Shown: piece by piece, positions 3,644 through 50,735 of the stretch | Layout of the letters: each line of letters opens with the position of its first letter | Position numbering within the stretch: the stretch's first letter is position 1 | Assembly: GCA_965602395.1 (NCBI GenBank) | Contig: CBFCYW010000003.1 | Span: 19,501-83,500 of the forward strand | Origin: an uncultured Chromatiales bacterium | GTDB taxonomy: Bacteria > Pseudomonadota > Gammaproteobacteria > CBFCYW01 | Length of the DNA: 64,000 nt | Direction: 5' to 3' | The notes under the pieces: model-generated | Told to the model about the DNA's origin: nothing | The model's database searches: none | Seen by the model: the letters and a program-made list of their open reading frames with translations, nothing else | Translations under genes and position numbers: made by a program

Positions 3644-3675
3644 CGCGCTAGCCCGGGGCGCGCGTGCGCTACGGT

Positions 3676-3710
3676 GAAAAGGCGTTTCCCTGCGGGGAAG
3701 CGCCTTTTCC
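3676..3710. terminator. bidirectional rho-independent terminator between coxC (+) and DUF2909 gene (-)
   Basis: GAAAA-GGCGTTTCCC-tgc-GGGGAAGCGCC-TTTTCC hairpin flanked by A/T runs. Confidence 0.45.
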
Positions 3711-3746
3711 ATCTCTGCATGGCGGGCTTTGCGGCAGGGCTGTCGC

Positions 3747-3959: not shown

Positions 3960-4067
3960 GCGCGGGACTCGGTTGGCGGAGGGGGCCGGCATTATAGCGG
4001 AAGCCGGTGCTGCATCCCGCGCTGCGCGAGGTGCGCGCCGGCGAGCCGGCTGCGACCGCCGCAGGCG

Positions 4068-4847: not shown

Positions 4848-5445
4848 GGCGGCGCGAGAGCAATCTGCGACCATCGGACGGCTGAAACTATTGGCGCTGA
4901 TCGGTGCCTTCGCCGGGCCATTGCTGCTGGCCAGCATCTGGTTCGCACTGACCGATCCGCAGGGCGAGGTGGATACGCGCAACAACGGCCAGTTGATCGA
5001 ACCCGCGCATCCGCTGACGGACTTCAGCCTGCGCCTCGCCGATGGCAGTGCGTTTGCGCTCGACGACCTGCGCGGGCACTGGACGATGGTGTACTTCTCC
5101 GCCGGGGAATGCGCCGAGCAGTGCGTCCAGAACCTCTACCACATGCGCCAGGTGCGGCTGTCGCTGCACAAGCGGATGCACCGCGTGCAGCGCCTCTATA
5201 TCGGCGCTCCGCTGGGCGATGAGCTGGTCGCCGAGCACCCCGGATTGCTGATCGCCACAGACGGGCAGATGGGCGAATTGCGCGATCAGTTCGACGCCGC
5301 GGAAGCGCAGCTCGGGCCGCTGCCGCAGGCGATCTATCTGGTCGATCCGCTGGGCAACCTGATGCTGCGCTTCGATCCGGCGCTGGACCCGCGCAAGATG
5401 CTCAAGGATCTGAAGCACCTGCTGAAAGTGTCGAGAATCGGCTGA
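4840..5445 (+). CDS. SCO1/SenC-like thioredoxin-fold protein (membrane anchored)
   Basis: GTG start overlapping surf1 stop; GHWTMVYFSAGECAEQC resembles the Sco CxxxC region; C-terminal YLVDPLG motif; the conserved Cu-ligand His before YLVDP is not evident. Confidence 0.55.
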   Translation: MTEAAREQSATIGRLKLLALIGAFAGPLLLASIWFALTDPQGEVDTRNNGQLIEPAHPLTDFSLRLADGSAFALDDLRGHWTMVYFSAGECAEQCVQNLYHMRQVRLSLHKRMHRVQRLYIGAPLGDELVAEHPGLLIATDGQMGELRDQFDAAEAQLGPLPQAIYLVDPLGNLMLRFDPALDPRKMLKDLKHLLKVSRIG

Positions 5446-6443
5446 TGATCCGCCATCCGATAATCTTCCGCCTCGCCCTGGCGGCCAGTGCGCTGGCGCT
5501 GGTGGTGGTGGTGCTGGGCGCCTGGGTGCGGCTGTCCGACGCCGGCCTGGGCTGCCCCGACTGGCCGGGCTGCTACGGCCACCTCGGCGTGCCGGACGAG
5601 GCGCACGAGGTCGCCGCCGCCAACGCCGCCTACCCGCAGCGCCCGGTGGAGGCGGACAAGGCCTGGAAGGAGATGATCCACCGCTACGCGGCTTCGATTC
5701 TCGGCCTGCTGATCGCCGCCATCGCGGTGCTCGCCTGGCGCGCGCGACGCCGCGGGGAGGGCGTCGGCAAGCTGCCCTATGCGCTGTTTGCGCTGGTCGT
5801 ATTCCAGGGGCTGCTGGGCATGTGGACGGTGACCCTGCTGGTCAAGCCGATCATCGTCCTCGCCCACCTCGCTGGTGGCCTGAGTACGCTGGCGCTGCTC
5901 TGGTGGCTGGTGCTGCGCCACTCCGGCTGGGGCGACGGTCAGGTCGCAACGCGGCACCTGCGCGGTCCGGCGCTGCTGGCGCTGGGGGTGTTGCTGGTGC
6001 AGATCCTGCTCGGTGGCTGGACCAGTACCAACTACGCCGCGCTGTCCTGCCCGGATCTGCCCACCTGCCAGGGGCAGTGGTGGCCGCCGATGGATTTCGC
6101 CGACGGCTTCACCCCGTGGCGCGGGCTCGGCATCGATTACGAAGGTGGCGTGTTGGCCAACGAGTCGCGGGTGGCGATCCACGTCGCCCACCGCCTCGGC
6201 GCCATCGCTGCGGCGCTGCTGGTCGGCCTGCTGGCGCTGCTCGCCTGGCGCAGTGGCGGTGTCGCGCGACCGGTGGCGGCGCTGATCGGCGGCCTGCTGC
6301 TGCTGCAGCTGGCGCTGGGCCTGGGCAATGTGCTGCTGAGCCTGCCGCTGGGCGTGGCCACTGCGCACAATGGCGGCGCGGCGCTGCTGCTGCTGTCGCT
6401 GCTGAGCTTGCTGCACCTGCTGTATCCGGCCAAAATGCGCTGA
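5445..6443 (+). CDS. ctaA: haem A synthase (COX15/CtaA)
   Basis: 332 aa; CPDWPGC motif, multi-TM, paired His; TGATG overlap with upstream gene. Confidence 0.9.
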   Translation: MIRHPIIFRLALAASALALVVVVLGAWVRLSDAGLGCPDWPGCYGHLGVPDEAHEVAAANAAYPQRPVEADKAWKEMIHRYAASILGLLIAAIAVLAWRARRRGEGVGKLPYALFALVVFQGLLGMWTVTLLVKPIIVLAHLAGGLSTLALLWWLVLRHSGWGDGQVATRHLRGPALLALGVLLVQILLGGWTSTNYAALSCPDLPTCQGQWWPPMDFADGFTPWRGLGIDYEGGVLANESRVAIHVAHRLGAIAAALLVGLLALLAWRSGGVARPVAALIGGLLLLQLALGLGNVLLSLPLGVATAHNGGAALLLLSLLSLLHLLYPAKMR

Positions 6444-6461
6444 TTGCCTGGGGGAGAAGCC

Positions 6462-7367
6462 ATGAAAGCGACCGAAACGGCCGACGTGCCGCGTGCCATA
6501 CAGTGGCGCGAATATCTTGAGCTGACCAAGCCGAAGGTGGTGTTGCTGCTGGTGTTCACCGCCATTGTCGGCATGTTTTTGTCCACGCCGGGGATGCTGC
6601 CGCTGCAGGAATTCCTCTTCGGCACCCTCGGCATCGGCCTCGCTTCGGCCTCGGCGGCGGCGATCAACCACGTCGTCGACCGCCGCGCCGACGCCGAGAT
6701 GGCGCGCACCCGCAACCGCCCGCTGCCCAAGGGCAGCCTGTCCACCACCGAGTGCCTCACCTTCGCTCTGCTGCTCGGCGCCGTGGCGATGGCGATTCTG
6801 GTGTGGTTGGTGAATCCGCTGACCGCGGCGCTGACCTTCGCTTCGCTGATCGGCTACGCGGTGGTCTACACCATGTACCTTAAGCGCGCCACGCCGCAGA
6901 ACATCGTCATCGGCGGATTGGCCGGGGCGATGCCGCCGGTGCTCGGCTGGGCGGCGATCACCGGTGCGGTGACCGCCGAGTCGCTGCTGCTGGCGCTGAT
7001 CATCTACGTTTGGACGCCGCCGCATTTCTGGGCGCTGGCGATCCATCGCAAGGCCGAGTACGCGCGCGTCGATATCCCCATGCTGCCGGTCACCCACGGC
7101 GAGAATTTCACCCGCCTGCACGTGTTGCTGTACACCGTGCTGTTGCTGGTGGTCAGCGTGCTGCCCTATCTGATCGGCATGAGTGGCCCGCTGTATCTGG
7201 CGGTAGCGCTGCTCGCCGGCGGCGGGTTCCTGTGGCACGCGGTGCTGATGATGGATCCGCAGCGCAGCCGCCAGCCGATCAAGACCTTCGTGTTTTCCAT
7301 CAACTATCTGATGGCGTTGTTCGCCGCGCTGTTGGTCGACCACTACCTGCCGCTGCTGTTTGGCTAG
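6462..7367 (+). CDS. cyoE: protohaem IX farnesyltransferase (haem O synthase)
   Basis: UbiA-family prenyltransferase (NHVVDRRADAEMARTRNRPL); alternative upstream start at 6444. Confidence 0.9.
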   Translation: MKATETADVPRAIQWREYLELTKPKVVLLLVFTAIVGMFLSTPGMLPLQEFLFGTLGIGLASASAAAINHVVDRRADAEMARTRNRPLPKGSLSTTECLTFALLLGAVAMAILVWLVNPLTAALTFASLIGYAVVYTMYLKRATPQNIVIGGLAGAMPPVLGWAAITGAVTAESLLLALIIYVWTPPHFWALAIHRKAEYARVDIPMLPVTHGENFTRLHVLLYTVLLLVVSVLPYLIGMSGPLYLAVALLAGGGFLWHAVLMMDPQRSRQPIKTFVFSINYLMALFAALLVDHYLPLLFG

Positions 7368-20098: not shown

Positions 20099-21463
20099 AT
20101 GCGCGAACCCATCGGCCCCAGTTACGGCGAGTGGTGGCGCGATACCCCGGCGCGGCGCCGCTTGCGCCTGCTGCTGATGCTGCTGCCGAGCGTCGCCCTG
20201 CTGCTTTGGGCCGGCGCCGGGCAGCACTCGCAGGTGCAGCTCGGCCGCGCGCTGTTCGCCGCCCTCGGCGCCGGCGACGTGGCGGAATTTCGCGCCCTCG
20301 TGCGGCGCGGCGCGCCGCTGGCAGCCCTCGATGCCCAGGGCGACAGTCTGCTGCACGATCTGCAAGTGCGCATGCCGGCAGCACAGGCGCTGGCGCTGAG
20401 CGAGCTGCTGTTGCGCCGCGGCGCGCCGGTCGATCCCCGCGACCGCCACGGTCTGACGCCACTGCATCTGGCCGCGGATCGCGGCGACGCGGCGCTGGTC
20501 GAGCTGCTGCTGCAAAGCGGCGCCGACGCCAATCCCGACCCGCCCCCCGACGTCTCTTCCGAGTCGCACTTCGGCACGCCGCTGCACCGCGCCGCGGCCG
20601 GCGGCCACGGCCGCGTGCTGCATTTGCTGCTGGCCCAGGGCGCGGCACCGGATGCGCGCGATGCGCGCGGGCTGACGCCGTTGTTTCTCGCCGCGATGGG
20701 CAATCGCCCGGATCTGGTCTCCGCACTGGCGGCGCGCGGTGCCGGCACCGAGGTCGCCGATGCGCGCGGGCGCAGCCCGCTACACTGGGCGGCGCTGCGC
20801 GATCAGTCGGCGCTGGCCGCGGCACTGCTCGCCGCCGGCGCCGACCCGCAACGCCGCGACGCCAAGGGCAACAGCGCGCTGCACCACGCCGCTTGGCGCG
20901 GCCACCTGAACGTGGTGCAGCTGCTGCTGCGCCACGGCGCCGATGTCAATGCACGCAGCGATCAGCTCGCTATCAGCCCGCTGCACGTCGCCGCGCGCCG
21001 CGGTCATCTCGGAGTGCTGCGCGAGTTGCTGCGTGCGGGCGCCGATGTCGACGCGCTCAGCGCGCTGTACGGCACGCCGCTGCACTGGGCGGCGGAGAGC
21101 GGTCAACGCGGCGCGGCCGAGCTGTTATTGCGCGCCGGCGCCGCGGCCAGTCGACTCGATGGCCACGGCCTCAGCGCCACCGCGCGCGCCGCTCAGGGCG
21201 GCCACCGCGAGCTGGCCCGGCGACTGTTCGCGGCCGCCGCGCGGCAGCGCGACTGGTGGCCGCGGGCGGTGCTCGGACCGCGCGACGCGGGGCGGCTCGC
21301 CGGCTGCGAGCTGCCGCCGCGCATGCATCCGGCGAGCCGTGAGCTGCTCGACAGCTACGCCCAGGGCAACATGTCGGTGGCCGAGTATCGGCGCCAGTTC
21401 TCGCTGCCCAACTCGGACTATCTGCCACTGGCCGAGTGCCTGGTGGGGCTGTATCGCGATTGA
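20099..21463 (+). CDS. ankyrin repeat protein with N-terminal membrane anchor
   Basis: 454 aa; TM/signal-anchor LRLLLMLLPSVALLLWAGA; about 9 ANK repeats (G.TPLH.AA..GH...V.LLL..GAD); roughly 80-aa non-ANK C-terminus. Confidence 0.85.
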   Translation: MREPIGPSYGEWWRDTPARRRLRLLLMLLPSVALLLWAGAGQHSQVQLGRALFAALGAGDVAEFRALVRRGAPLAALDAQGDSLLHDLQVRMPAAQALALSELLLRRGAPVDPRDRHGLTPLHLAADRGDAALVELLLQSGADANPDPPPDVSSESHFGTPLHRAAAGGHGRVLHLLLAQGAAPDARDARGLTPLFLAAMGNRPDLVSALAARGAGTEVADARGRSPLHWAALRDQSALAAALLAAGADPQRRDAKGNSALHHAAWRGHLNVVQLLLRHGADVNARSDQLAISPLHVAARRGHLGVLRELLRAGADVDALSALYGTPLHWAAESGQRGAAELLLRAGAAASRLDGHGLSATARAAQGGHRELARRLFAAAARQRDWWPRAVLGPRDAGRLAGCELPPRMHPASRELLDSYAQGNMSVAEYRRQFSLPNSDYLPLAECLVGLYRD

Positions 21464-28618: not shown

Positions 28619-29431
28619 CTACGCCGAGCGCTGTCCCGGTGCGGCCAGCGCGCGCAGCGCGTACAGGTCGTAGCGCGTATTGGCGCTGGCGATCGCCGCG
28701 GATGGCGCCGGCCCGGCCAGCGGCGGTGCCCCCTTGGGCCGTTTGACCACCACCCGCGCCGCGCCGCAGTCGAGCGCCGCGGCGAGCAGTTCGGCGGAAT
28801 CCTGATCCGGCCCGGCCAGCCGTTGCAGCAGGCGCATCTCCTTTTTCACCGCGGCGGATTTGTCGCGCTGCGGGTACATGGGGTCGAGATAGACGCAATC
28901 CGGCGCCGCCGCCGCATCGAGGCCGCGCAGCCAGCCTGCCGCATCGGCGCCGATCAGCGCCATGCGCGCCGCGATCGGCGCGGTGGCGGCGTCGGCCGCG
29001 GCGCGCTGCAGACCGTCGGCGAGCAGCTCGGCGAGCAGCGGCTGGCGCTCGATCAGCTGCACCGCGCAGCCGAGGCTGGCGAGCACGAAGGCATCCCGGC
29101 CGAGGCCGGCGGTGGCGTCGACCACGCGCGGCGACAGGCCGCCCTTGAGGCCCAGCGCGCGCGCCAGCGGCTGGCTGCGGCCGCCGCCGAACTGGCGTCG
29201 ATGGGCGGCGCGGCCGGCGGTGAAATCGACGCTCACCGCGCCGCCGCGGCTTGGTCGCAGGGTGCGCAGCGCCAGCCGCTCGCCGACCTCCAGCAGGGCG
29301 TCGGCGGCAGCCGGATCGGTGGCCTGCCCGGCGCTGGCTGGCGCCAGTCCGAATTGCTCGGCCAGCGCCGCGGCGCGCGCGGCGAAGCGCGCTTCCAGCG
29401 GGATCACGGCGATCTGCAATGCTGCGGGCAT
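28619..29431 (-). CDS. rsmJ: 16S rRNA (guanine1516-N2)-methyltransferase RsmJ
   Basis: about 270 aa from MPAALQIAVIP; VVDATAGLGRDAFVLASLGC SAM-binding motif; YLDPMYP. Confidence 0.8.
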   Translation of the reverse strand: MPAALQIAVIPLEARFAARAAALAEQFGLAPASAGQATDPAAADALLEVGERLALRTLRPSRGGAVSVDFTAGRAAHRRQFGGGRSQPLARALGLKGGLSPRVVDATAGLGRDAFVLASLGCAVQLIERQPLLAELLADGLQRAAADAATAPIAARMALIGADAAGWLRGLDAAAAPDCVYLDPMYPQRDKSAAVKKEMRLLQRLAGPDQDSAELLAAALDCGAARVVVKRPKGAPPLAGPAPSAAIASANTRYDLYALRALAAPGQRSA

Positions 29432-29498
29432 CTGCGTGGCGGGCCTGTGGCCGGCGGGCGTTGAGCGGGCAGCCATGCTAAGCGATCCGGAGGAGTGA

Positions 29499-30059
29499 AT
29501 GAACCGAGATGAAAAGCGCCTGTTGCTGCGCGCAATCCTGAAACTGATGACCGCGGTGGCGGTGATCGTCGCTGCCGCGGTGCTGATCTCCGGGCTGTTC
29601 GGCGGCGGTGAGCGCGCACAGACCAGCCTGCGCCTGCCGCTGGATGATCTGGCCCCCGGCGAGCTGCGCCAGCTGGAGTGGGACGGCCGGCCGCTGCTGG
29701 TGCTGCACCGCGACGCGGCGATGCTGGCCGCGCTGCGCGAATCGGCACTGCGCGGCGAGCTGCGCGATGCCGACGGCGACTGGTCGCAGCAGCCCGACGG
29801 GCTGCCGGTGGCGACCCGGTCGCGGCGGCCGGAGTACTTTGTCGCGCTGGCGGTGGGTAGCGATCTGGGCTGCGCGCTGCGCTGGCTGCCGGCGGGCGGT
29901 GAGTTCCGCGGCCAGCGCTGGCCGGGCGGCTTCGCCGATACCTGTCGCGGCTCGCGCTACGATCTCGCCGGGCGGGTCTTCGACGACCAGCAGGCGCAGC
30001 GCAATCTGCGCGTGCCGGAGTACCGCATCGACGGCGCCACGCTGCTGCTCGGCGAGTAG
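29499..30059 (+). CDS. Rieske-fold protein, membrane anchored, homologous to cytochrome bc1 Rieske subunit but lacking all four [2Fe-2S] ligands
   Basis: 186 aa; TM anchor; box I GSDLGC (vs CTHLGC) and box II DTCRGSRYDLAGR (vs CPCHGSHYDxSGR); C-terminal NLRVPEY vs NLxVPPY. Confidence 0.7.
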   Translation: MNRDEKRLLLRAILKLMTAVAVIVAAAVLISGLFGGGERAQTSLRLPLDDLAPGELRQLEWDGRPLLVLHRDAAMLAALRESALRGELRDADGDWSQQPDGLPVATRSRRPEYFVALAVGSDLGCALRWLPAGGEFRGQRWPGGFADTCRGSRYDLAGRVFDDQQAQRNLRVPEYRIDGATLLLGE

Positions 30060-30092
30060 CGCGCCGTCTCGCCGCCGACTCGGCGCCGCGCC

Positions 30093-30668
30093 TCAGAGCA
30101 CCTCGCCGCCGAACTGCTCGGCGCCGGCCAGCAGCAGCTCCCACAGCGACAGCGCGAAGCCGCGCGGCAGCAGCAGGTCGTAGCCCGCAGCGTGGCGCCA
30201 CAGGGTCACCCCGGCGTGGTGAAAGGCGGTGCTGGCCAGCGCGCCCACCGGGAAGCTGGCGTCGCGCAGATCCAGCGGCAGTTGCCGGTTGAGCAGTTCC
30301 GCGGCCTGCGGCCCGCAGATGCGCAGCCGGGTGCGCGAGTGCGACTGATCGAGGGTGACCGCGCGGCTGGCGTCGCTGAAGGTCGTGGCCAGTTTGCGGT
30401 CGCCGTCGATCAGCCACCACTTCAGCGGTTCGACGCGCAGCAGCGTGCCGCGCTCGGTGATGGCCGCCCGGCAGGCGCCGGGGGCGGCGTCGATGCCCAG
30501 CTGCGCGGCCAGTTCGGCGCCGACATCGGCCAGCGTGTCCGGCCAGGCGGCGATCTGCAACAGCGACAGCCCGCGGACCTCGCTGAGGCTTACGCCGCTG
30601 TCGATATCGGCCGCGCCGAGGCGGCCGCGGGGGTAGTTCGCGCTCAGCGCGGAAGCTCGCTCAGCCAT
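30093..30668 (-). CDS. soxG: sarcosine oxidase gamma subunit
   Basis: about 191 aa from MAERASAL; immediately downstream of soxA with 8-nt overlap; SoxG-like size and composition. Confidence 0.7.
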   Translation of the reverse strand: MAERASALSANYPRGRLGAADIDSGVSLSEVRGLSLLQIAAWPDTLADVGAELAAQLGIDAAPGACRAAITERGTLLRVEPLKWWLIDGDRKLATTFSDASRAVTLDQSHSRTRLRICGPQAAELLNRQLPLDLRDASFPVGALASTAFHHAGVTLWRHAAGYDLLLPRGFALSLWELLLAGAEQFGGEVL

Positions 30669-33639
30669 GCATTCTCTCTCCGCTGGGGTCGAACATGTGC
30701 GGGGAAACCACTTCGACTTCGATGTTGCCCTTGCGCACCGGGTCGGCGGCCACCAGCGTTTTGCCGGCCCAGGCCTGGTGGCCGCCGCGGACGAAGCCGA
30801 GGCCGATCCAGTGGCCCAGCGCCGGCGAGTGGGTGACGCCGGTGATCCAGCCCTCACCGAGGCCTTCGACGCGCTCGGCGGCGCACAGGATGCTGCCCGA
30901 GTTGAAGGTTTGGCTGCGGTCTTTGGGGAAGATGCCCACCAGCCGCGGGCGATCCTCGCGCAGCAGCTCGGGGCGCTGCTGCATGACGCTGCCGATGTAG
31001 GATTTTTTCTGCGATGCCATGCCGCCGAGGCCGGCGTCTTCGATGCTCACCCGGCCGTCCAGTTCGGCGCCGGTGACGTGGCCCTTTTCGATCCGCAGCG
31101 TGCCCAGTGCTTCGAGGCCGTAGAGGCAGCCGCCGCGCGCTTCGGCCTGCGCCCAGAGCATGTCCATCATCTGCTCGGCGTGATCGGCGCCGACGTAGAC
31201 CTCGTAGGCGCGCTCACCGGAGAAGCTGATGCGCGCGATGCGGCAGGGAATGCCGCCGGTCATCATCGTCTCGCGCACGCCCATGAAGGGGAAGGCCTCG
31301 TTGTCCATCATCTGCGGATCTTCGAGGCAGGCGGCGATGCATTCGCGCGACTGCGGGCCGGCCACCGCGCAGCCGCCCCACTGGTCGGAGACCGAGCTGA
31401 CGTGGACCTTCAGATCCGGCCAGCGGGTCTGCAGCAGCTCCTCCAGCCAGACCATCACCTTGGCCGCGTTGGCGGTGGTGGTGGTCATGAAGAAGTCGTC
31501 CTCGCTGATCCGCCAGGTGGTGCCGTCGTCCATCACGATGCCGTCGTCGCGCAGCATGATGCCGTAGCGCGCCTTGCCCACCGGCAGCTTGGCGAAGGCG
31601 TTGCTGTACACGCGGTTGAGCAGGGTGGAGGCATCCGGCCCCTGAATGGCGATCTTGCCCAGGCTGCTGACGTCGCATAGGCCGACCGTCTCGCGCACCG
31701 TGGTCGCCTCGCGCACGTAGGCTTCGCCGAGGCCCTCGCCGGCGCGCGGGTAGTACCAGGGGCGGTGCCACAGCCCGGCCATGGTCATCACCCCGCCGCG
31801 GGCCAGGTTCCAGTCGTGCATCGGCGTGCGCCGCAGGCAGCGGAAGTGCTCGCCGCTGTTGCGCCCGGTGAGCGCGCCGATCGATACCGGCGTGTACGGC
31901 GGGCGGAAGGTGGTGGTGCCGACCTCGGGGATCTCGCGGCCCAGCGCGTCGGCCATCAGCGCCAGGCCGATGACATTGCCCATCTTGCCCTGATCGTTGG
32001 CCATGCCCAGCGTGGTGTAGCGCTTGAGGTGCTCGACCGAGACGAAGCCCTCGCGGTGGGCGAGGCGCACGTCGTCGGCGGTCACATCGTGCTGCGGATC
32101 GACGAAGCTCTTCAGCTTTTCGCCGTCGACGACCACTTCGTAGAGCGGCTGGATCGGCTGCTGCCAGCCGCCGCGCGCCGGCATCGCCACCACGGCTGTC
32201 GATTGGCCCAGTGCGGCGATCGCCCGCGCCGCGGCGGCGCGCCCGGACTGCTCGCAGGCGGTGGTATTCCAGATGCCCGCGGCGCTGCCGGCGACGAAGA
32301 TGTTCTCTTCGCTGTCGCCGGGCACGAAGCAGGTCAGCTCGGCATCCCACACCGGTTTGACGCCGCGGTGCGAGAGCAGGTTGACCACCGGCGACCAGCC
32401 GCCGGAGACCAGCAGCGCGTCGCAGGGCCGCGCGCCGTCGGCGCGCCAGCCGCTGCCGGCGGCGCTGGCGATCTCCACCCCCTGCACGCCCTTGGCGCCG
32501 TTGGCGCGCAGCGGCGCGCTGCCGCTGAGCAGCTCGACGCCGCTGTCGCCGAGCGTCGCGCGCAGCTCCTCGGATACTGTCTGGCGGGCGTCGAGCAGGC
32601 TCACGCTGGCGCCGGCGCGGGCCAGTTCGGCGGCGCCGGCGTAGGCCGAGTCGTTGTTGCTGGCGATTACCACGCGCTGTCCGGCGAGCACGCCGAAGCG
32701 GTTCAGGTAGCTGCGCGCCGCGGCCGCGCCCATCACCCCCGGGCGGTCGTTGTCGCCGAAGGCGATGTGTCGCTCGATGGCGCCGCTGGCGAGTACCACG
32801 GCGCGCGGCCGCAAATACCAGAAGCGCTGCCGCGGCAGCTGCGCGCCGGGGTTCGGCAGGTGGTCGGTGACGCGCTCCAGCAGGCCGGCGACGAGGTTGT
32901 CGTAGAGGCCGAAGGCGGTGGTGCGACGCAGGATGCGCACGCCGGCGGCCTCGGCTCGGGCGACCAGTTCGTCGGGGTCGGCATCGGGCTGGTTGAGGTA
33001 GTCGCCGCCGAGGGCGAAATCCTGCTCCACCAGCCACACGTCGAGGCCCGCCTCGGCGGCGCTCAGCGCGGCGTGCAGGCCGGCCGGGCCGGCGCCGACG
33101 ACCAGCAGATCGCAGAAGCCGTGGGCGTGTTCGTAGCTGTCCGGGTCCGGCGCGCGCGAGGCCTCGCCCATGCCGGCGGCCTTGCGGATGAGCTTCTCGT
33201 ACTGCATCCACAGGCCGGTGCCCCTGCCCCACTCGAAGGGCGGCAGGCCCATGAAGGTCTTGTAGTAAAAGCCGGCGGAGAAGAAGCGGCCGAACAGGCC
33301 GTTCAGTGCGTTGACGTCGAAGCGCACGCTGGGCCAGGCGTTCTGGCCGTGGGCGGCGAGGCCGTCGAACAGCTCGCAGGTGGTGGCGCGCACGTTGGGG
33401 TCGCGGCGCTCGTGGCTGCCCACGGTGACCAGTGCGCCGGATTCCTCGACCCCGGCGGACATCACCCCGCGCGGGCGGTGGTACTTGAAGCTGCGGGCGA
33501 GGATCTGCTCGCCGCTGGCCAGCAGCGCCGAGGCCAGGGTGTCGCCGGGGTGGCCCTGGTACTGGCGGTCGTCCCAGCTGAAGTCAAGCGCTTGCGTGCG
33601 GTCGATGCGACCGCCGCTGGCGAGGCGGGTGGCGCTCAT
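30661..33639 (-). CDS. soxA: sarcosine oxidase alpha subunit (heterotetrameric SoxBDAG)
   Basis: 992 aa from MSATRLASGGRIDRTQALDFSWDDRQYQGH; NAD/FAD-binding N-terminal domains plus C-terminal aminomethyltransferase (GcvT) fold; ATGA overlap with soxD stop. Confidence 0.92.
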   Translation of the reverse strand: MSATRLASGGRIDRTQALDFSWDDRQYQGHPGDTLASALLASGEQILARSFKYHRPRGVMSAGVEESGALVTVGSHERRDPNVRATTCELFDGLAAHGQNAWPSVRFDVNALNGLFGRFFSAGFYYKTFMGLPPFEWGRGTGLWMQYEKLIRKAAGMGEASRAPDPDSYEHAHGFCDLLVVGAGPAGLHAALSAAEAGLDVWLVEQDFALGGDYLNQPDADPDELVARAEAAGVRILRRTTAFGLYDNLVAGLLERVTDHLPNPGAQLPRQRFWYLRPRAVVLASGAIERHIAFGDNDRPGVMGAAAARSYLNRFGVLAGQRVVIASNNDSAYAGAAELARAGASVSLLDARQTVSEELRATLGDSGVELLSGSAPLRANGAKGVQGVEIASAAGSGWRADGARPCDALLVSGGWSPVVNLLSHRGVKPVWDAELTCFVPGDSEENIFVAGSAAGIWNTTACEQSGRAAAARAIAALGQSTAVVAMPARGGWQQPIQPLYEVVVDGEKLKSFVDPQHDVTADDVRLAHREGFVSVEHLKRYTTLGMANDQGKMGNVIGLALMADALGREIPEVGTTTFRPPYTPVSIGALTGRNSGEHFRCLRRTPMHDWNLARGGVMTMAGLWHRPWYYPRAGEGLGEAYVREATTVRETVGLCDVSSLGKIAIQGPDASTLLNRVYSNAFAKLPVGKARYGIMLRDDGIVMDDGTTWRISEDDFFMTTTTANAAKVMVWLEELLQTRWPDLKVHVSSVSDQWGGCAVAGPQSRECIAACLEDPQMMDNEAFPFMGVRETMMTGGIPCRIARISFSGERAYEVYVGADHAEQMMDMLWAQAEARGGCLYGLEALGTLRIEKGHVTGAELDGRVSIEDAGLGGMASQKKSYIGSVMQQRPELLREDRPRLVGIFPKDRSQTFNSGSILCAAERVEGLGEGWITGVTHSPALGHWIGLGFVRGGHQAWAGKTLVAADPVRKGNIEVEVVSPHMFDPSGERMHG

Positions 33640-33920
33640 CGCTGTGCCTCCAGCGCCTGTGCGATGCCGGCGTGGGCCGGGCGCACGCTGCGGATTTCGT
33701 GGCTCAGGGTGTCGCGCTCGACCAGCAGCCACAGGCGGCAGCCGCTGCTGTGCTGCCAGGTTTCGGTCTGCATGCCGCGGATGTTGTCGCGCAGGAAGAT
33801 GGCGTCGTGCCACTGTTCGGCCGGGGCGTCCAGCTCGGGGTATTCGATCGAGCCGTCGCCGCCGTAGCTGAATTCGCTGTGGTCGCGCTCGCCGCAGAAG
33901 GGACAGGGAATACGGATCAC
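33636..33920 (-). CDS. soxD: sarcosine oxidase delta subunit
   Basis: 94 aa, GTG start with GAGGA RBS: (M)IRIPCPFCGERDHSEFSYGGD...; Cys-rich zinc-ribbon-like N-terminus typical of SoxD. Confidence 0.8.
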   Translation of the reverse strand: MIRIPCPFCGERDHSEFSYGGDGSIEYPELDAPAEQWHDAIFLRDNIRGMQTETWQHSSGCRLWLLVERDTLSHEIRSVRPAHAGIAQALEAQR

Positions 33921-33931
33921 TTTGTTCGTCC

Positions 33932-35230
33932 TCAGCCGTGCAGTTTCGGGTCTGGCCCGGCGCCGCGCTCGTCGATGATCACGCCGCGCTCGAAGCGCTT
34001 CAGATCGTGGTTGGCGATCACCTCGTGGGGGCGGTCGTTGGCGATCAGGTCGGCAAAGTACCAGCCCGAGGCGGGGCTGGCCTTGAAGCCGCCGTAGTTC
34101 CAGCCGGCGTTCAGGTAGAGGTTGTCCAGCGGCGTCTTGCAGATGAACGGCGAGCCGTCCATCGACATGTCCATCACCCCCGACCAGTGGCGCAGCAGGC
34201 GCACCCGGCCGAGGCAGGGCAGGATCGACATGGCCGCTTCGGCGGTGTCCTGCACGATCGGCAGATTGCCCTTCTGCGCGTAGGACTTGTACCAGTCGAT
34301 GTCGCCGCCGAAGACCATCCCGCCCTTGTCCGACTGCGAGATGTAGAAGTGCGCGCCGCCGACGCCGAACACCACCACCTGATCGAGCAGCGGCTTGAGC
34401 GGCTCGCTGACGAAGGCCTGCAGCTTGTGCGATTCGATCGGCAGGCGGCCGAGGCCGGCCATCTGCCACAGCCGCGAGCTGTTGCCGGCGACGGCGAAGC
34501 CGATCTTTTTGCCGTCGATCGGCCCGCGCGAGGTATCCACGCCGACGATCCGCGCGCCGTCGCGGCGCACCCCGGTGACCTCGCAGTTCTGGATGATATC
34601 CACGCCCAGCGCGTCGGCGGCGCGGGCGTAGCCCCAGGCGACCGCGTCGTGGCGCGCGGTGCCGGCGCGGCGCTGCACCGCGGCGCCGATGATCGGAAAG
34701 CGCGCGTTGTTGTAGTCGAGGTGCGGGATCTCGCGCTTGAGGGTGTCCAGATCCCACAGCTCACCGTCGCTGCCGGTCAGGCGCATGCTGTTGTAGCGGC
34801 GCGCCGCGGCGTCGCGCGCGGCGGGGCTGTGGAACAGGCTGACGTGGGCGCGCTGGCTGAACATGACGTTGTAGTTCAGCTCGTGGCTGAGCTCCTCCCA
34901 GAGGCGCAGCGAGTGCTCGTAGAACTCGCGGTTGCCCGGCATCATGTAGTTGGAGCGCACGATGGTGGTGTTGCGCCCGGCGTTGCCGCCGCCCAGCCAG
35001 CCCTTTTCCAGCACCGCGACGCGGCTGATGCCGTGGTTCTTCGCCAGATAGTAGGCGGTGGCCAGGCCGTGCAGACCGGCGCCGACGATGATCGCGTCGT
35101 ACTCGGCCTGCGGCTCGGGATCGCGCCATTGCCGCGACCAGCCACGCTGGCCGGTGAAGCCGTTGCGGATCACATTCCATGCGGAAAAACGTGTCATGGG
35201 CAGTTCTTTCGTTGGCTCGTGTGTGGGCAC
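33932..35230 (-). CDS. soxB: sarcosine oxidase beta subunit
   Basis: FAD dinucleotide fold YDAIIVGAGLHGLATAYYLA; covalent-FMN His region; possible alternative start at MTRFSAW (35197). Confidence 0.9.
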   Translation of the reverse strand: MPTHEPTKELPMTRFSAWNVIRNGFTGQRGWSRQWRDPEPQAEYDAIIVGAGLHGLATAYYLAKNHGISRVAVLEKGWLGGGNAGRNTTIVRSNYMMPGNREFYEHSLRLWEELSHELNYNVMFSQRAHVSLFHSPAARDAAARRYNSMRLTGSDGELWDLDTLKREIPHLDYNNARFPIIGAAVQRRAGTARHDAVAWGYARAADALGVDIIQNCEVTGVRRDGARIVGVDTSRGPIDGKKIGFAVAGNSSRLWQMAGLGRLPIESHKLQAFVSEPLKPLLDQVVVFGVGGAHFYISQSDKGGMVFGGDIDWYKSYAQKGNLPIVQDTAEAAMSILPCLGRVRLLRHWSGVMDMSMDGSPFICKTPLDNLYLNAGWNYGGFKASPASGWYFADLIANDRPHEVIANHDLKRFERGVIIDERGAGPDPKLHG

Positions 35231-47526: not shown

Positions 47527-48930
47527 ATGCAGGCCCGGGTCATGGCTCACCGACTCAATGTTCGCGCCCGGCCGCATACCGATGGCCGTCGCCTTGGCGT
47601 GCTGCCGCGCGATGCGGTGATCAACCTGCTCGGCGAGCGCGGCAACTGGCGCGAGATCCGCTTCAAGGGCGCGCCGGCCTTTCTGCATGCCAGCCATCTC
47701 GAAGCCCTACCCGTAGCGCAGCCGCTGCGCGGCTTGGTGCGCGCCAGGTATCTCAACGTGCGCGCCGCGCCGTCGGCACGTGCGCGGATTATCGGCGGGC
47801 TGGTCAAAGGCGGCGTGGTGGATATCCTCGGCGAACAGGGCGAATGGCTGGAGATCGAATTCAACGGCTCCACCGCCTTCGTCCACGGCGACTACATCAG
47901 CCTCAGCCAGCCGGCGCACCGCGAGCGCGCCCGCGTCAGCGTCGATTGGCTCAACGTGCGCGCCGCCCCCAGCATTCGCGGCCAGCTGCTCGGCCAACTG
48001 CCACGCGGTGCCGAATTCGCCATCGGCGCGCGCCACGGTGGCTGGCTGGAGCTGCGCTTCAACGGCGCCACCGCCTTCGTCCACGGCGATCACGTGCAGT
48101 CATCGCCGATCGGCGAGCACTCCCCGCAGCATCCCGCCGCGCCGGAATCTGACGAACCCATCGAGCTACCGCCGCGCGCGCCTGAGCTGGATCAACCGGC
48201 CGACAGTCTCGACCGCGTGCCGCTGGCCGCCACGCGCCGATTGCAGGCTGGCGACAGCCGCCGCGAGGTCGCCGTCGCCAGTACCTGGAATCGATACGGC
48301 GGCCTGCTGGAAAAACTCTGCGATGAGCGCGCCCTCGACCCCGGCTGCGCCGTTGCCGTGCTCTGCGTGGAAAGCGCCGGCCAGGGCTTTGATCGCAACA
48401 ACCGGCAGCGCATGGTGGTGCGCTTCGAAAACCACAAATTCTGGAAGTATTGGGGGCGCGACAACGCGGCGCAGTTCCAGCGGCATTTTCGCTTTGGTAT
48501 CGAGGACGATCTCGGTCGCCTGCGGCAAACCTGGAAGCGCCACCAGTGGCGGCAAAGGAGCAACGGCCGTTGGCGCGATTTTCACGGTGATCAGGCCGCC
48601 GAATGGCAAGTGCTGGATTTCGCGCGCTCGCTGGATGACAGCGCAGCGCTGATGTCCATTAGCATGGGCGCGCCGCAGATCATGGGCTTTCACTATAAGG
48701 CGCTAGGTTTCGATACGGTTCAGGATATGTTCGAGCAGTTCAGCTCCGACATCCGCTATCACATAATCGGCCTGTTCGATTTCTTCGATAGCCGCATGAC
48801 CCAGGCGCTGCGACGGCAGGATTTTGAAACCTTTGCCGGCTACTACAACGGCAGTGGCCAGAAGCAGCGCTACGGCCGACTTATCGGCGACCATTTCAAC
48901 GCTTGGCGCCGGCTCGATGGCCGAGCCTGA
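47527..48930 (+). CDS. cytoplasmic peptidoglycan hydrolase: 3 x SH3b repeats + C-terminal N-acetylmuramidase (PF11860/DUF3380-like, TtsA/endolysin family)
   Basis: No signal peptide; three about 65-aa repeats (LNVRA.PS.......G.L..G.......G....W.EI.FNG..AFVH); C-terminus GAPQIMGFHYKALGF...FE.F......H..GLFDFF.......ALRRQDFETFAGYYNGSGQKQRYG matches the muramidase family pattern; GGAAGGAG RBS. Confidence 0.8.
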   Translation: MQARVMAHRLNVRARPHTDGRRLGVLPRDAVINLLGERGNWREIRFKGAPAFLHASHLEALPVAQPLRGLVRARYLNVRAAPSARARIIGGLVKGGVVDILGEQGEWLEIEFNGSTAFVHGDYISLSQPAHRERARVSVDWLNVRAAPSIRGQLLGQLPRGAEFAIGARHGGWLELRFNGATAFVHGDHVQSSPIGEHSPQHPAAPESDEPIELPPRAPELDQPADSLDRVPLAATRRLQAGDSRREVAVASTWNRYGGLLEKLCDERALDPGCAVAVLCVESAGQGFDRNNRQRMVVRFENHKFWKYWGRDNAAQFQRHFRFGIEDDLGRLRQTWKRHQWRQRSNGRWRDFHGDQAAEWQVLDFARSLDDSAALMSISMGAPQIMGFHYKALGFDTVQDMFEQFSSDIRYHIIGLFDFFDSRMTQALRRQDFETFAGYYNGSGQKQRYGRLIGDHFNAWRRLDGRA

Positions 48931-48975
48931 ACAAATAAGTGCGGCGGCAGCGCCGCCCGCAGGAGTCTGCAGACA

Positions 48976-49404
48976 ATGAGCATCCTTAATTTCATCGGCC
49001 AGATCTTCAAGCCGGCCACCGACTTGATCGATGACATGCACACCAGCGATGAGGAAAAGATCAAGCTGCAGGCGCAGATGAGGGTCATCGAGAACGAATT
49101 CCAGGCCAAGATGCTGGAATACGAAACCCGCTTGATGGAGAACAAGGCCTCGATCATCAACGCGGAATCCACCGGGCATTCCTGGCTGCAGAGAAACTGG
49201 CGGCCGATAACCATGCTCACCTTCCTCACCCTGGTGGTGATGGACAGCTTTGGCTGGCTCGCCAATCCTCTCGCCGACGAGGCCTGGTTACTGCTGCAGA
49301 TCGGTCTCGGTGGATATGTGGCGGGGCGGTCAATGGAGAAGATCACCGGCAAGTTCATGTCCACGCGGCGCGGGATTGATCCGGATAACGACGCCGTGGG
49401 GTGA
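48976..49404 (+). CDS. holin, GTA-type 3TM holin family-like (PF11351-like)
   Basis: 142 aa; N-terminal FKPATDLIDDMHTSDEEKIKLQAQ...ENKAS....S.G.SW...WRP pattern followed by two or three hydrophobic helices; CAGGAG RBS; 45 nt downstream of muramidase. Confidence 0.65.
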   Translation: MSILNFIGQIFKPATDLIDDMHTSDEEKIKLQAQMRVIENEFQAKMLEYETRLMENKASIINAESTGHSWLQRNWRPITMLTFLTLVVMDSFGWLANPLADEAWLLLQIGLGGYVAGRSMEKITGKFMSTRRGIDPDNDAVG

Positions 49405-49770
49405 TGCTGAGCAGCTTTGGCTGCGCGCAGCAGCCATCGCACTGGCCATCTGTGATTGTGGTGAAAAGCATCGCCGCCCAGCGCTGATTGATCGCCCGGA
49501 TTATTCGCAAGCCCTGGCCGAACAATCTTCCCGCCAAGCAGTCTGCAGAGTTTCGCGGCGCAGCTGCCGGTGCGTCCGCAAGCCGTACTCCGGGCAGCGC
49601 TTCCCGCCTATCCCGACCCCGCCTGGCGCCAGAAATAAAGCGCCCGGGCGGCCCGCGCTACAACCGCTAAAAGTATCAGGCCGCAGCAGTGCATATCTGA
49701 TCGATCGGTAATGCGGATTAAGTCTTTGTTTTTTTATAGATATACCGGTCGTTAATCCTCCGGGCGCTTG

Positions 49771-49822
49771 CGGTTTGACGACACATTGATAGCGTGTTTG
49801 CCATCAAACCGCCTTTTTGTTT
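49771..49822 (+). promoter_or_regulatory. terminator-like hairpin + T-tract located within the 5' leader immediately upstream of the DUF4382 gene RBS (candidate attenuator/riboswitch expression platform)
   Basis: GCGGTTTGA-(24 nt)-TCAAACCGC followed by CTTTTTGTTTGG, then GGAGAT RBS and ATG 49833. Confidence 0.45.
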
Positions 49823-49832
49823 GGAGATCCCG

Positions 49833-50735
49833 ATGGGAAAATTTACTGTTCTCGCCGTGTCGCTTCCTATACTGCTGGCCGCCTGTGGCGGTGGAGATGG
49901 GTATGGAAATGGCAGTTCCGGAGAAACCGGTAGCATGACACTGTCGCTGACCGATGGGCCAGTAGATACCGCAAATAAAGTGGTCGTGCGTTTTGACAGC
50001 GTTTCAATAAAGCCGGCGGATGACGAACCCATCGTTTTTACTTTTGATACGCCGAAAGACATCGACCTGCTACAGCTGACGGGCAATGCCTACGAGAACC
50101 TGCTCGATGAAGTCGAACTGCCCACCGGTGAGTACACGTGGATCCGGCTTGGCGTGGTGGCGGATCACGATGGCGTGCTGGATTCGTATATTGAACTGAG
50201 CGATGGCTCGGAAGTGGAGTTGCGCGTGCCCAGCGGCAACCAGACAGGCCTCAAGGTCAACCATAGTTTTGTCGTCTCAGCGCAGAGCAATATCGATTTC
50301 ACCATTGATTTTGATCTGCGCAAATCGGTGACCAACCCGCCCGGGCAGCCAGGTGCCCTGCTTCGCCCGACACTGCGAATGGTAGACAATCTCGAAGTGG
50401 GTAGCATTTCCGGTGAAATTGCTCCGGAGATCATCAGCGCCGAATGTGAGAATTCGGTGTCCAATGATGGTGCTGTCTATGTATTTACCGGATCGGATGT
50501 GACCCCCATCGATGTGCGCGATGAGCCGACCGACCCGGTTACCACAGCTTTTGTGGAATTCGCAGAGGATGCCTACAGCTACGAGGCCGGTTTTCTTGAA
50601 GCTGGTGATTACACCATCGCTTATACCTGTGATAACGAAGCGGATATCGCCGATCAGGATGAAGAGTTGATATTCGTTGGCCAGAGTAATGTCACGGTGG
50701 TAGCCAGGCAGAATACAGTGGCCGATTTCGACTGA
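49833..50735 (+). CDS. DUF4382 domain lipoprotein, low GC
   Basis: signal peptide + lipobox LLAAC; Gly/Ser linker; 300 aa; GC visibly lower than surrounding genes. Confidence 0.75.
   Translation: MGKFTVLAVSLPILLAACGGGDGYGNGSSGETGSMTLSLTDGPVDTANKVVVRFDSVSIKPADDEPIVFTFDTPKDIDLLQLTGNAYENLLDEVELPTGEYTWIRLGVVADHDGVLDSYIELSDGSEVELRVPSGNQTGLKVNHSFVVSAQSNIDFTIDFDLRKSVTNPPGQPGALLRPTLRMVDNLEVGSISGEIAPEIISAECENSVSNDGAVYVFTGSDVTPIDVRDEPTDPVTTAFVEFAEDAYSYEAGFLEAGDYTIAYTCDNEADIADQDEELIFVGQSNVTVVARQNTVADFD

What the first reader, a model, noticed from the sequence alone, without database searches (positions are those of the whole stretch)
29499..30059. Rieske bc1-type iron-sulfur protein paralogue that has lost all four [2Fe-2S] ligands but kept the disulfide cysteines
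The protein aligns along its length to membrane-anchored cytochrome bc1 Rieske subunits (PetA-like N-terminal anchor, box II ...GSRYDLAGR, C-terminal NLRVPEY). But box I is GSDLGC instead of CTHLGC, and box II is DTCRGS instead of CPCHGS. Both His and both cluster-ligating Cys are replaced, while the two Cys that normally form the stabilising disulfide remain. It is not adjacent to cytochrome b/c1 genes. It sits beside the sarcosine oxidase operon, divergent from rsmJ. A cluster-less Rieske fold would be a structural or regulatory protein of unknown role.
Basis: seen in the sequence. Interest (0 to 1): 0.55.

Follow-up and report, generated by a model that had tools for sequence, protein, structure and literature searches.

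The report
Conserved cluster-less Rieske (bc1-type) paralogue
This gene encodes a membrane-anchored copy of the respiratory Rieske iron-sulfur protein that has lost all four residues holding the iron-sulfur cluster; it belongs to a widespread, selectively maintained and so far unnamed family in Gammaproteobacteria whose function is unknown.

Summary
ORF 29499-30059 (+), 186 aa, has a strong Shine-Dalgarno site and aligns end to end with cytochrome bc1 Rieske subunits (PDB 8SMR_C and 7YR9_A, E about 1e-25). In a profile-profile alignment (probability 100%, E 1e-53), GSDLGC lies opposite CTHLGC and DTCRGS opposite CPCHGS. All four ligands are replaced (Cys to Gly, His to Asp, Cys to Asp, His to Arg). 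Both disulfide cysteines remain.

It is not a one-off or a pseudogene:
- About 110 of the best 150 representatives (50% identity clusters) in a 1.84-billion-protein library lack the full ligand set, and all keep both cysteines.
- The clade is one branch in a tree built without the ligand columns (bootstrap 68%).
- dN/dS is 0.32-0.36, lower than for the neighbouring rsmJ.
- The AlphaFold2 model (pLDDT 92.7) is a bc1-type Rieske fold.

In 21 of 22 gammaproteobacterial genomes the gene sits next to rsmJ in a housekeeping block, never near petB/petC. The sarcosine oxidase adjacency is specific to this lineage.

The hinge and anchor motifs of canonical subunits are not conserved. Most likely this is a redox-inert periplasmic "pseudo-Rieske" with a non-electron-transfer role. 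The role itself remains inferred.

The parts
29489..29495 (+). Shine-Dalgarno sequence GGAGGAG, five bases upstream of the ATG
   Evidence: Read from the sequence. The start agrees with homologues P0001 and P0002, which begin MNRDEKR/MNRNEKR.
29499..30059 (+). CDS of the ligand-less bc1-type Rieske paralogue (186 aa plus stop)
   Evidence: TIGR01416 scores 83.5 bits against a cut-off of 97.4. There is no Pfam hit. AlphaFold2 pLDDT is 92.7. The best Foldseek match is 8smr_C.
29505..29600 (+). N-terminal basic segment (K6 R7 ... R11 ... K15) and a single transmembrane helix (residues 3-34). The charge distribution predicts N-in/C-out.
   Evidence: The AlphaFold2 model has one helix over residues 3-34. 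The family motif is R-x-L-x-L-R-V-L-L-K-x-M, with R11 and K15 at least 90% conserved. K6-R7 aligns with the canonical twin arginine.
29601..29639 (+). Linker in place of the canonical hinge (residues 35-47). It is poorly conserved and is the lowest-confidence part of the model.
   Evidence: Mean pLDDT for residues 31-40 is 67. Within-class identity is 0.22 in the ligand-less family and 0.59 in canonical subunits.
29856..29873 (+). Box I remnant G120-S-D122-L-G-C125 (canonical C-T-H-L-G-C). The ligand Cys is now Gly, the ligand His is now Asp, and the disulfide Cys is kept.
29937..29978 (+). Box II remnant D147-T-C149-R150-G-S-R-Y-D-L-A-G-R-V (canonical C-P-C-H-G-S-...). The ligand Cys is now Asp, the ligand His is now Arg, and the disulfide Cys is kept. 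S152 and Y154 are invariant among the 58 ligand-less sequences compared.
29988..30008 (+). Former 'Pro loop' (canonical V-P-A-P-x-N-L), here Q164-Q-A-Q-R-N-L. Both prolines are lost; A166 and N169 are kept.
   Evidence: P165 and P167 are 99-100% conserved in canonical sequences and not conserved in the family.
28619..29476 (-). rsmJ (16S rRNA m2G1516 methyltransferase family, PF04445), the conserved divergent neighbour. This is synteny; no functional link is shown.
   Evidence: E 2.2e-82. rsmJ is adjacent in 21 of 22 ligand-less loci from species-representative genomes.

Best explanation
The gene encodes a redox-inert 'pseudo-Rieske' protein: a paralogue of the beta/gammaproteobacterial cytochrome bc1 iron-sulfur subunit (PetA) that has been kept under selection after losing its [2Fe-2S] cluster.

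Shown:
- It has one N-terminal transmembrane helix and a C-terminal domain with the bc1-type Rieske fold.
- All four ligand positions are replaced in a family-specific, conserved way (Gly120, Asp122, Asp147, Arg150).
- The Pro loop is lost.
- The two cysteines that form the loop-stapling disulfide in canonical subunits are invariant.

Inferred:
- Orientation is N-in/C-out, from the positive-inside rule. The head domain would then face the oxidising periplasm, where Cys125-Cys149 form the disulfide.
- The emptied cluster pocket is filled by an acidic or salt-bridged polar network (Asp122-Arg150, Asp147, Ser152, Tyr154).
- The protein cannot pass electrons from quinol to cytochrome c1.
- The canonical hinge is not conserved and the anchor carries its own conserved motif, unlike that of PetA. 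So the protein most likely works outside the mobile-head position of bc1, as a stand-alone membrane-anchored periplasmic binding or scaffold module whose partner is not yet known.
- It is transcribed on its own from a housekeeping backbone (pdxH-DUF423-yajQ-rsmJ-X-mreBCD/gatCAB).
For: - Homology and register.
- Fold: AlphaFold2 pLDDT 92.7, pTM 0.78. Foldseek top hits are all bc1 Rieske subunits; 7yr9_A matches at rmsd 1.8 A over 145 columns.
- Switch positions: exactly four alignment positions are at least 85% conserved in both classes yet differ between them, and they are the four ligand positions.
- Family size and conservation: 36 of 120 phmmer hits; 22 species-representative genomes; 109 ligand-less among the best 150 representatives of 50% identity clusters, all with both Cys.
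- Acidic site: position 147 is acidic in 101 of 110, and the four positions have net charge -1 or -2 in 99 of 110. D122/R150 pair in 51, against G/S/A122 with D150 in 16.
- Single clade without the ligand columns: NJ bipartition, bootstrap 136/200.
- Purifying selection: dN/dS 0.36 and 0.32, against 0.47 and 0.43 for rsmJ.
- Hinge and anchor divergence: linker identity is 0.59 within canonical, 0.22 within the family and 0.16 between them. TM identity is 0.41, 0.37 and 0.17.
- No petB/petC in the window or within 10 kb of any ligand-less locus.
- Opposite-strand neighbours on both sides in the window.
- Zn-TtPetA shows that the bc1 Rieske cluster subdomain is pre-formed without the Fe-S cluster (PMC10492824).
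Against: - No experiment exists on any member.
- Model coordinates could not be read, so the Asp-Arg salt bridge and the S-S distance are inferred from the canonical structure and from covariation, not measured.
- The replacements at the ligand positions differ between subfamilies (GDDR, GGDD, E.E.Y), so there may be no single conserved site chemistry.
- 59% of members keep a twin arginine at the canonical Tat position. That would be unexpected if no folded or cofactor-bearing state had to be exported.
- Whether the protein binds bc1 is untested. Loss of hinge conservation argues against a mobile head, but not against static binding.
Confidence: 0.6

Rival explanations
1. It is an alternative, catalytically dead subunit of the bc1 complex. 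It would occupy the Rieske slot of cytochrome b/c1 as a placeholder, assembly intermediate, down-regulator of Qo-site turnover, or structural element for supercomplexes. This resembles what has been proposed for 'deranged' bc1 complexes.
For: It descends from PetA and keeps the whole bitopic architecture and the core of the head domain. Many members keep RR at the Tat position. The window organism has an aa3 cytochrome c oxidase, so it probably has a bc1 or an equivalent complex. Degli Esposti et al. 2023 (PMC10715153) suggest a structural role for ligand-less ISP/bc1 in Acidocella.
Against: The gene is never found near petB/petC. The hinge, which is highly conserved in canonical subunits (0.59), is not conserved (0.22). 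The TM anchor shares only 17% identity with canonical anchors and has its own conserved motif. All three loops that dock on cytochrome b (box I, box II, Pro loop) are remodelled.
Confidence: 0.2
2. The remodelled tip is a new active or sensing site. Either the invariant Cys125/Cys149 pair is a redox-active disulfide (a thiol-disulfide exchange or redox-sensing protein), or Cys2/Asp2 (+Tyr/Ser) binds a mononuclear metal, a cation, or an unconventional cluster.
For: The two cysteines are the only residues of the former site that are invariant in all 150 representatives. Low-potential Rieske folds do without this disulfide (established knowledge). The former site is acidic in nearly all members, and S152 and Y154, which hydrogen-bond the cluster in canonical proteins, stay invariant among the 58 ligand-less sequences compared.
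Against: An arginine occupies the second His position in the main subtype, which disfavours cation or cluster binding there. The replacements vary between subfamilies. There is no CxxC-type motif and no thiol-redox gene in the neighbourhood. Retention of the disulfide is equally explained by the need to tie the two loops once the cluster is gone.
Confidence: 0.15
3. It is a decaying pseudogene, or a mis-called or misaligned canonical Rieske gene.
For: There is no Pfam hit, and the NCBIfam score is below the cut-off.
Against: The ORF is intact with a strong SD site. dN/dS is 0.32-0.36. The family-specific motifs are conserved in more than 100 sequence clusters. The profile-profile alignment is unambiguous. 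The model is confident.
Confidence: 0.02

Closest known systems
Cytochrome bc1 Rieske iron-sulfur subunit PetA of Beta/Gammaproteobacteria (TIGR01416; PDB 8SMR chain C from Pseudomonas aeruginosa; 7YR9/7YRA TtPetA from Thermochromatium tepidum)
   Same: Length; the N-terminal anchor helix; the bc1-type Rieske fold including the long insertion between boxes I and II (W-P-G-G-F); the disulfide cysteines; the motifs S-R-Y/F-D-L-A-G-R-V and N-L-x-V-P. Identity is 32-37%.
   Different: All four cluster ligands and the Pro loop are replaced. The hinge is not conserved. The anchor motif differs. The gene is not in a petABC operon. It scores below the TIGR01416 cut-off and does not match PF00355.
'Deranged' Rieske ISP of Acidocella (Acetobacteraceae) described by Degli Esposti et al. 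2023 (PMC10715153)
   Same: A bc1-type ISP that lacks three or four [2Fe-2S] ligands yet keeps the two disulfide cysteines.
   Different: That protein is the petA gene of a degenerating petABC operon in acidophilic Alphaproteobacteria, where cytochrome b has also lost haem ligands. The protein here belongs to a separate paralogue clade of Gammaproteobacteria. It sits in a non-pet, syntenic housekeeping locus, has family-specific conserved replacements and is under purifying selection.
Zn-bound 'immature' TtPetA (PDB 7YR9; PMC10492824)
   Same: It shows that the bc1 Rieske cluster-binding subdomain holds its conformation without the Fe-S cluster. It is the best structural match of the soluble domain (rmsd 1.8 A).
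   Different: It is a normal PetA with all ligands present and a metal (ZnCl2) bound by the two ligand cysteines. It is a maturation state, not an evolved cluster-free protein.
NirD-type Rieske-like domains (Pfam Rieske_2), small subunit of assimilatory nitrite reductase. From my own knowledge; not tested here beyond the negative Pfam scan.
   Same: A Rieske-like fold that often lacks the cluster ligands and serves a non-redox, structural role.
   Different: It is soluble and cytoplasmic, of the low-potential type without the disulfide, and has no membrane anchor. No sequence match was detected.

Membership tests
Cytochrome bc1 Rieske iron-sulfur subunit (PetA; TIGR01416 / PF00355) | Box I C-x-H and box II C-x-x-H ligands of the [2Fe-2S] cluster | tested here: not met
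   G120, D122, D147 and R150 lie at the four ligand columns in the phmmer, MAFFT and hhalign alignments.
Cytochrome bc1 Rieske iron-sulfur subunit (PetA; TIGR01416 / PF00355) | Disulfide cysteines of high-potential Rieske proteins (last Cys of box I, middle Cys of box II) | tested here: met
   C125 and C149 are invariant in all sequences examined. Formation of the bond itself was not tested.
Cytochrome bc1 Rieske iron-sulfur subunit (PetA; TIGR01416 / PF00355) | Score at or above the curated HMM thresholds | tested here: not met
   TIGR01416 scores 83.5 bits against a cut-off of 97.4. There is no Pfam family even at E<=10. All 36 ligand-less relatives have no precomputed Pfam domain.
Cytochrome bc1 Rieske iron-sulfur subunit (PetA; TIGR01416 / PF00355) | Encoded with cytochrome b and c1 (petABC/fbcFBC operon) | tested here: not met
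   tblastn with petB and petC found nothing in the window or in 23 ligand-less loci.
Cytochrome bc1 Rieske iron-sulfur subunit (PetA; TIGR01416 / PF00355) | bc1-type Rieske fold with an N-terminal membrane anchor | tested here: met
   AlphaFold2 pLDDT is 92.7 with a helix over residues 3-34. The Foldseek top 50 hits are all bc1 Rieske subunits.
Cytochrome bc1 Rieske iron-sulfur subunit (PetA; TIGR01416 / PF00355) | Twin-arginine (Tat) signal-anchor R-R-x-F-L | tested here: inconclusive
   The window protein has K6-R7 at the aligned position. 58 of 98 scorable family members keep RR, and 30 of 98 keep RRx-hydrophobic-hydrophobic.
Cytochrome bc1 Rieske iron-sulfur subunit (PetA; TIGR01416 / PF00355) | Conserved flexible hinge allowing head-domain movement | tested here: not met
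   Linker identity is 0.59 within canonical sequences, 0.22 within the family and 0.16 between them. The canonical P-S-E-R-A-x-A-A-G-A-P motif is absent.
Cytochrome bc1 Rieske iron-sulfur subunit (PetA; TIGR01416 / PF00355) | Binds a [2Fe-2S] cluster (EPR g about 1.90) and transfers electrons from quinol to cytochrome c1 | not testable with these tools
   This needs purified protein. The sequence offers only 2 Cys and 1 His in total.
Ligand-less PetA-like clade of Gammaproteobacteria (unnamed; defined here) | Motifs G-[TS]-D-x-G-C and D-x-C-R-G-S-R-Y-D-[LF]-A-G-R-V, plus Q-x-A-x-x-N-L in place of the Pro loop | tested here: met
   The window has GSDLGC, DTCRGSRYDLAGRV and QQAQRNL, which matches the main GDDR subtype (40 of 150 representatives).
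Ligand-less PetA-like clade of Gammaproteobacteria (unnamed; defined here) | Location next to rsmJ in the pdxH-DUF423-yajQ-rsmJ block | tested here: met
   The window and 21 of 22 genome loci. The E-type member P0103 is an exception; it lies between lolB and ispE.
Pseudogene | Frameshifts or stops, or relaxed selection (dN/dS near 1), in this copy or its close relatives | tested here: not met
   Relatives at 99%, 83% and 66% identity have intact ORFs. dN/dS is 0.36 and 0.32.

The most novel reading that the evidence does not exclude
The family is a previously unrecognised class of periplasmic, membrane-anchored proteins. The Rieske cluster pocket has been converted into a new functional site: an exposed, invariant Cys-Cys pair next to a conserved Asp/Asp/Arg/Ser/Tyr network. 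The site would be used for thiol-disulfide chemistry, cation or metal binding, or sensing. The family would have a housekeeping role in the envelope or respiratory chain of many Gammaproteobacteria, independent of electron transfer through bc1.
Probability: 0.25. Interest if true: 0.7.

Novelty: new variant of a known kind. Interest (0 to 1): 0.5.

Why it matters
Three reasons:
- Annotation. Members are labelled either 'ubiquinol-cytochrome c reductase iron-sulfur subunit' or 'hypothetical protein'. Metabolic reconstructions can therefore count a bc1 subunit, or a second Rieske protein, that cannot carry electrons. A dedicated HMM would fix this.
- Evolution. This is a clean natural example of a metalloprotein fold kept under selection after complete loss of its cofactor site, with conserved compensating residues (Asp/Arg and the disulfide). 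It is useful for understanding what stabilises the high-potential Rieske cluster subdomain.
- Biology. The gene is conserved in a housekeeping locus in phototrophic and chemolithotrophic sulfur oxidisers and marine heterotrophs (Ectothiorhodospira, Thioalkalivibrio, Granulosicoccus, Halioglobus). That implies an unknown role at the inner membrane or periplasm that could be tested genetically in cultivable hosts.

Tried and rejected
- Canonical PetA in the same species. I searched the 5.8-billion-protein set with a canonical Ectothiorhodospiraceae PetA, hoping to see named hits from Ectothiorhodospira mobilis, Thioalkalivibrio or Granulosicoccus. The 120 listed hits were nearly all unnamed metagenome proteins, so co-occurrence could not be tested this way. 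Literature only supports in general terms that these groups have bc1.
- Sarcosine oxidase link: rejected. No sox genes lie beside the 22 genome homologues. In L088 the gene is followed directly by slyX, and in L013 by mreDCB.
- Functional link to rsmJ: not supported beyond synteny. The genes are on opposite strands, and two different arrangements exist.
- Literature. Searches for cluster-less or Rieske-like proteins returned nothing. Searches gave only the Acidocella precedent. Searches gave nothing on this family.
- Sigma-70 promoter scan of 29200-30300: no sites. One 'terminator-like' hairpin lies inside the CDS (29816-29832) and is taken as chance.
- Rfam and tRNA scans of the window: nothing.
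- The first NJ bootstrap script timed out. I re-ran it with my own NJ code.
- Model coordinates are not exposed to the script environment, so side-chain distances in the former cluster site could not be measured.

Full report
**The object**

Window 29499..30059 (+) is a 186-codon ORF. A GGAGGAG Shine-Dalgarno sequence ends five bases before the ATG. Third-position GC is 0.89, typical of real genes in this 68% GC window. Pfam finds nothing even at E<=10. NCBIfam finds only TIGR01416, the proteobacterial ubiquinol-cytochrome c reductase iron-sulfur subunit. That match covers almost the full length but scores 83.5 bits, below the curated cut-off of 97.4.

**Checking the observation**

- phmmer against all PDB sequences gives bc1 Rieske subunits only. 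The best are Thermochromatium tepidum PetA (7yr9_A, E 2.6e-25) and Pseudomonas aeruginosa bc1 (8smr_C, E 7.3e-25).
- In those alignments GSDLGC lies opposite CTHLGC and DTCRGS opposite CPCHGS.
- I built a profile of 36 relatives (A2) and a profile of 30 canonical PetA proteins (A3). hhalign aligns them with probability 100% and E 1e-53 in the same register.
- So the four ligands are replaced: Cys to Gly120, His to Asp122, Cys to Asp147, His to Arg150. The two disulfide cysteines (Cys125, Cys149) are kept.
- The whole protein has just two Cys and one His.

**Not a singleton, not a pseudogene**

- In a search of 5.8 billion proteins, 36 of the best 120 hits share the same ligand-less motifs, G-[TS]-D-x-G-C and D-x-C-R-G-S-R-Y-D-L-A-G-R-V. 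None of them has a precomputed Pfam Rieske domain. The remaining hits are canonical.
- A scan of one genome per GTDB species found 22 ligand-less loci. They come from Granulosicoccaceae, Ectothiorhodospira mobilis, Thioalkalivibrio sulfidiphilus and T. denitrificans, Halioglobus, and Thiotrichales and other gammaproteobacterial MAGs. All are at most 47% identical to the window protein.
- A profile search of 1.84 billion cluster representatives gave 3256 hits. Among the best 150, 109 lack the canonical ligand set and all 150 keep both cysteines. Subtypes are GDDR (40, including the window), SDDR, GGDD/GSDD/GADD, and an E-x-E-Y type.
- I compared 58 ligand-less with 142 canonical sequences. Exactly four positions are at least 85% conserved in both classes yet differ between them, and they are the four ligand positions. 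The canonical Pro loop (P-A-P) is also lost.
- With the four ligand columns removed, a neighbour-joining tree still places all ligand-less sequences on one side of a single branch, with bootstrap 136/200.
- The closest relatives come from metagenome contigs at 99%, 83% and 66% identity, and all have intact ORFs. Nei-Gojobori dN/dS is 0.36 and 0.32, lower than for the adjacent bona fide gene rsmJ at 0.47 and 0.43.

The pseudogene refutation therefore also fails.

**Structure**

- AlphaFold2 with the family alignment gives mean pLDDT 92.7 and pTM 0.78.
- The model has one long N-terminal helix (residues 3-34), a lower-confidence linker, and a beta-rich domain.
- All top 50 Foldseek hits in the PDB are bc1 Rieske subunits. 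The soluble domain superposes on Zn-bound TtPetA at rmsd 1.8 A over 145 columns.
- The TtPetA study shows that the cluster subdomain keeps its conformation without the Fe-S cluster, and that Cys129-Cys154 form the disulfide (PMC10492824).
- The N-terminal segment is net positive (R3, K6, R7, R11, K15 against D4, E5), and the stretch after the helix is neutral to acidic. I therefore infer an N-in/C-out orientation with a periplasmic head, which fits retention of a disulfide.

**What replaced the cluster**

- Across 110 ligand-less representatives (including the window protein), position 147 is acidic in 101.
- The four positions together carry net charge -1 or -2 in 99.
- Asp122 pairs with Arg150 in 51 sequences. 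Sequences with Gly/Ser/Ala at 122 tend to have Asp at 150.
- Ser152 and Tyr154, which hydrogen-bond the cluster in canonical proteins, are invariant among the 58 ligand-less sequences compared (part of this sample was selected on the SRYD motif, and some representatives differ).

I infer that the pocket is filled by a salt-bridged polar network stapled by the disulfide.

**Is it still a bc1 subunit?**

- No petB or petC homologue occurs in the 64 kb window or within 10 kb of any ligand-less locus.
- The hinge region is strongly conserved among canonical subunits (mean pairwise identity 0.59). It is not conserved in the family (0.22) or between the classes (0.16).
- The anchor is conserved within each class (0.41 and 0.37) but not between them (0.17). 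The family has its own motif, R-x-L-x-L-R-V-L-L-K-x-M.
- A twin arginine at the canonical Tat position survives in 58 of 98 scorable members. The window protein has Lys-Arg there.

These data favour a protein that no longer works as the mobile head of bc1. They do not exclude static association.

The window does encode an aa3-type cytochrome c oxidase with its assembly genes. The organism therefore presumably has a functional quinol:cytochrome c oxidoreductase elsewhere. I could not verify co-occurrence of a canonical petA in the same genomes.

**Genomic context**

- In the window the order is P-type ATPase, LigB, pdxH, DUF423, yajQ (+), rsmJ (-), the Rieske-like gene (+), soxG-A-D-B (-), slyX, mreDCB (-), gatCAB (+).
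- In 21 of 22 genome loci rsmJ is the immediate neighbour. There are two arrangements: yajQ(+) rsmJ(-) X(+) in the window, Granulosicoccaceae and Halioglobus, and yajQ(+) X(+) rsmJ(-) in Ectothiorhodospira, Thioalkalivibrio and Thiotrichales (also L085).
- On the other side, relatives have mreB or an MreB-like gene followed by gatA, mreDCB (L013), or slyX (L088), and no sox genes.
- So the sox operon is a lineage-specific insertion, and the gene sits in an old housekeeping backbone. In the window it is flanked by opposite-strand genes, which suggests it is transcribed alone.
- One divergent E-type member lies in operon orientation between lolB and ispE.
- None of these neighbourhoods points to a specific partner.

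**Comparison with what is known**

The closest family is PetA, but four defining features were tested and not met: the ligands, the HMM thresholds, the operon context and the hinge. I therefore do not file it as a Rieske iron-sulfur subunit.

The nearest published precedent is the 'deranged' ISP of Acidocella. It lacks three or four ligands but keeps the disulfide cysteines, and it lies within a degenerating petABC operon of Alphaproteobacteria (PMC10715153). The present family differs in four ways: it is a separate paralogue clade, it is gammaproteobacterial, it is syntenic outside pet, and it is under purifying selection with conserved replacements.

NirD-type Rieske-like domains are a looser analogy, from my own knowledge. 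I found no description of this family in the searchable literature, though that library is incomplete. Source databases call members either 'ubiquinol-cytochrome c reductase iron-sulfur subunit' or 'hypothetical protein'.

**Verdict**

This is a new variant of a known kind: a conserved, cluster-less, membrane-anchored derivative of the bc1 Rieske subunit.

- The best-supported mechanism is a redox-inert periplasmic Rieske-fold module acting outside the catalytic cycle of bc1 (confidence about 0.6).
- The rivals are a dead alternative bc1 subunit (0.2) and a new disulfide or metal site (0.15).
- Function remains inferred. The decisive experiments are spectroscopy and metal analysis, disulfide redox state, complexome profiling in a cultivable host, and a genome-wide co-occurrence analysis with petBC.

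Interest is moderate at 0.5. It is a neat case for Rieske and bc1 specialists and for annotation, but it does not bear on a long-standing open question.

Noticed in passing
window 338-7367 (+): A complete aa3-type cytochrome c oxidase and assembly cluster: COX1, CtaG/Cox11, COX3, SURF1, an SCO1-like gene, CtaA/Cox15 and CtaB. The organism therefore respires through cytochrome c and should have a functional bc1 or alternative complex III elsewhere.
   Followed up: partly
window 30093-35230 (-), compared with L088 and L013: The soxB-D-A-G sarcosine oxidase operon lies between the Rieske-like gene and slyX/mreDCB only in the window lineage (also L081, L086). The relative at 66% identity (L088) has slyX directly downstream, and L013 has mreDCB. 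So sox is a lineage-specific insertion into a conserved backbone.
   Followed up: yes
window 47527-50735 (+): GC drops to 56-63% at 48-51 kb. The region holds a muramidase with three SH3 domains (47527-48930) followed by a GTA-type three-TM holin (48976-49404) and a DUF4382 protein. It looks like a lysis cassette from a gene-transfer agent or a prophage remnant.
   Followed up: partly
window 20099-21463 (+): A 454-aa protein made largely of ankyrin repeats (Ank_2 E 5e-60), which is unusual for a free-living bacterium. GC here is 75%.
   Followed up: no
L082-L084, 6001-6591 (Gammaproteobacteria bacterium SG8_47 and metagenomes): A divergent ligand-less homologue (P0103, with E-I-E-Y at the ligand positions) sits in operon orientation between lolB and ispE in the hemA-prfA-prmC / lolB-ispE-prs region, not beside rsmJ. 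This may be a separate subfamily with a different context.
   Followed up: partly
window 28619-29476 (-): The longest rsmJ ORF starts 22 bp from the Rieske-like ATG. Homologues suggest that the real start may be the internal Met at about 29431, as in the 277-aa call in L086. Either way the divergent intergenic region is at most about 70 bp, so both promoters must overlap coding sequence.
   Followed up: no
window 59104-61584 (-): A second glycine-betaine/sarcosine-type catabolic enzyme, a dimethylglycine/sarcosine dehydrogenase-like fusion (DAO + FAO_M + GCV_T + GCV_T_C, 826 aa). It suggests that one-carbon amine catabolism is prominent in this organism.
   Followed up: no
P0073, P0192, P0224 (protein hits): Possible intermediate forms: P0073 has CTPLGC/CPCHGS (one His lost), P0192 has C-S-C-G, and P0224 has G-H-D-R at the ligand positions. 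They may be partial-loss variants or sequencing errors.
   Followed up: no
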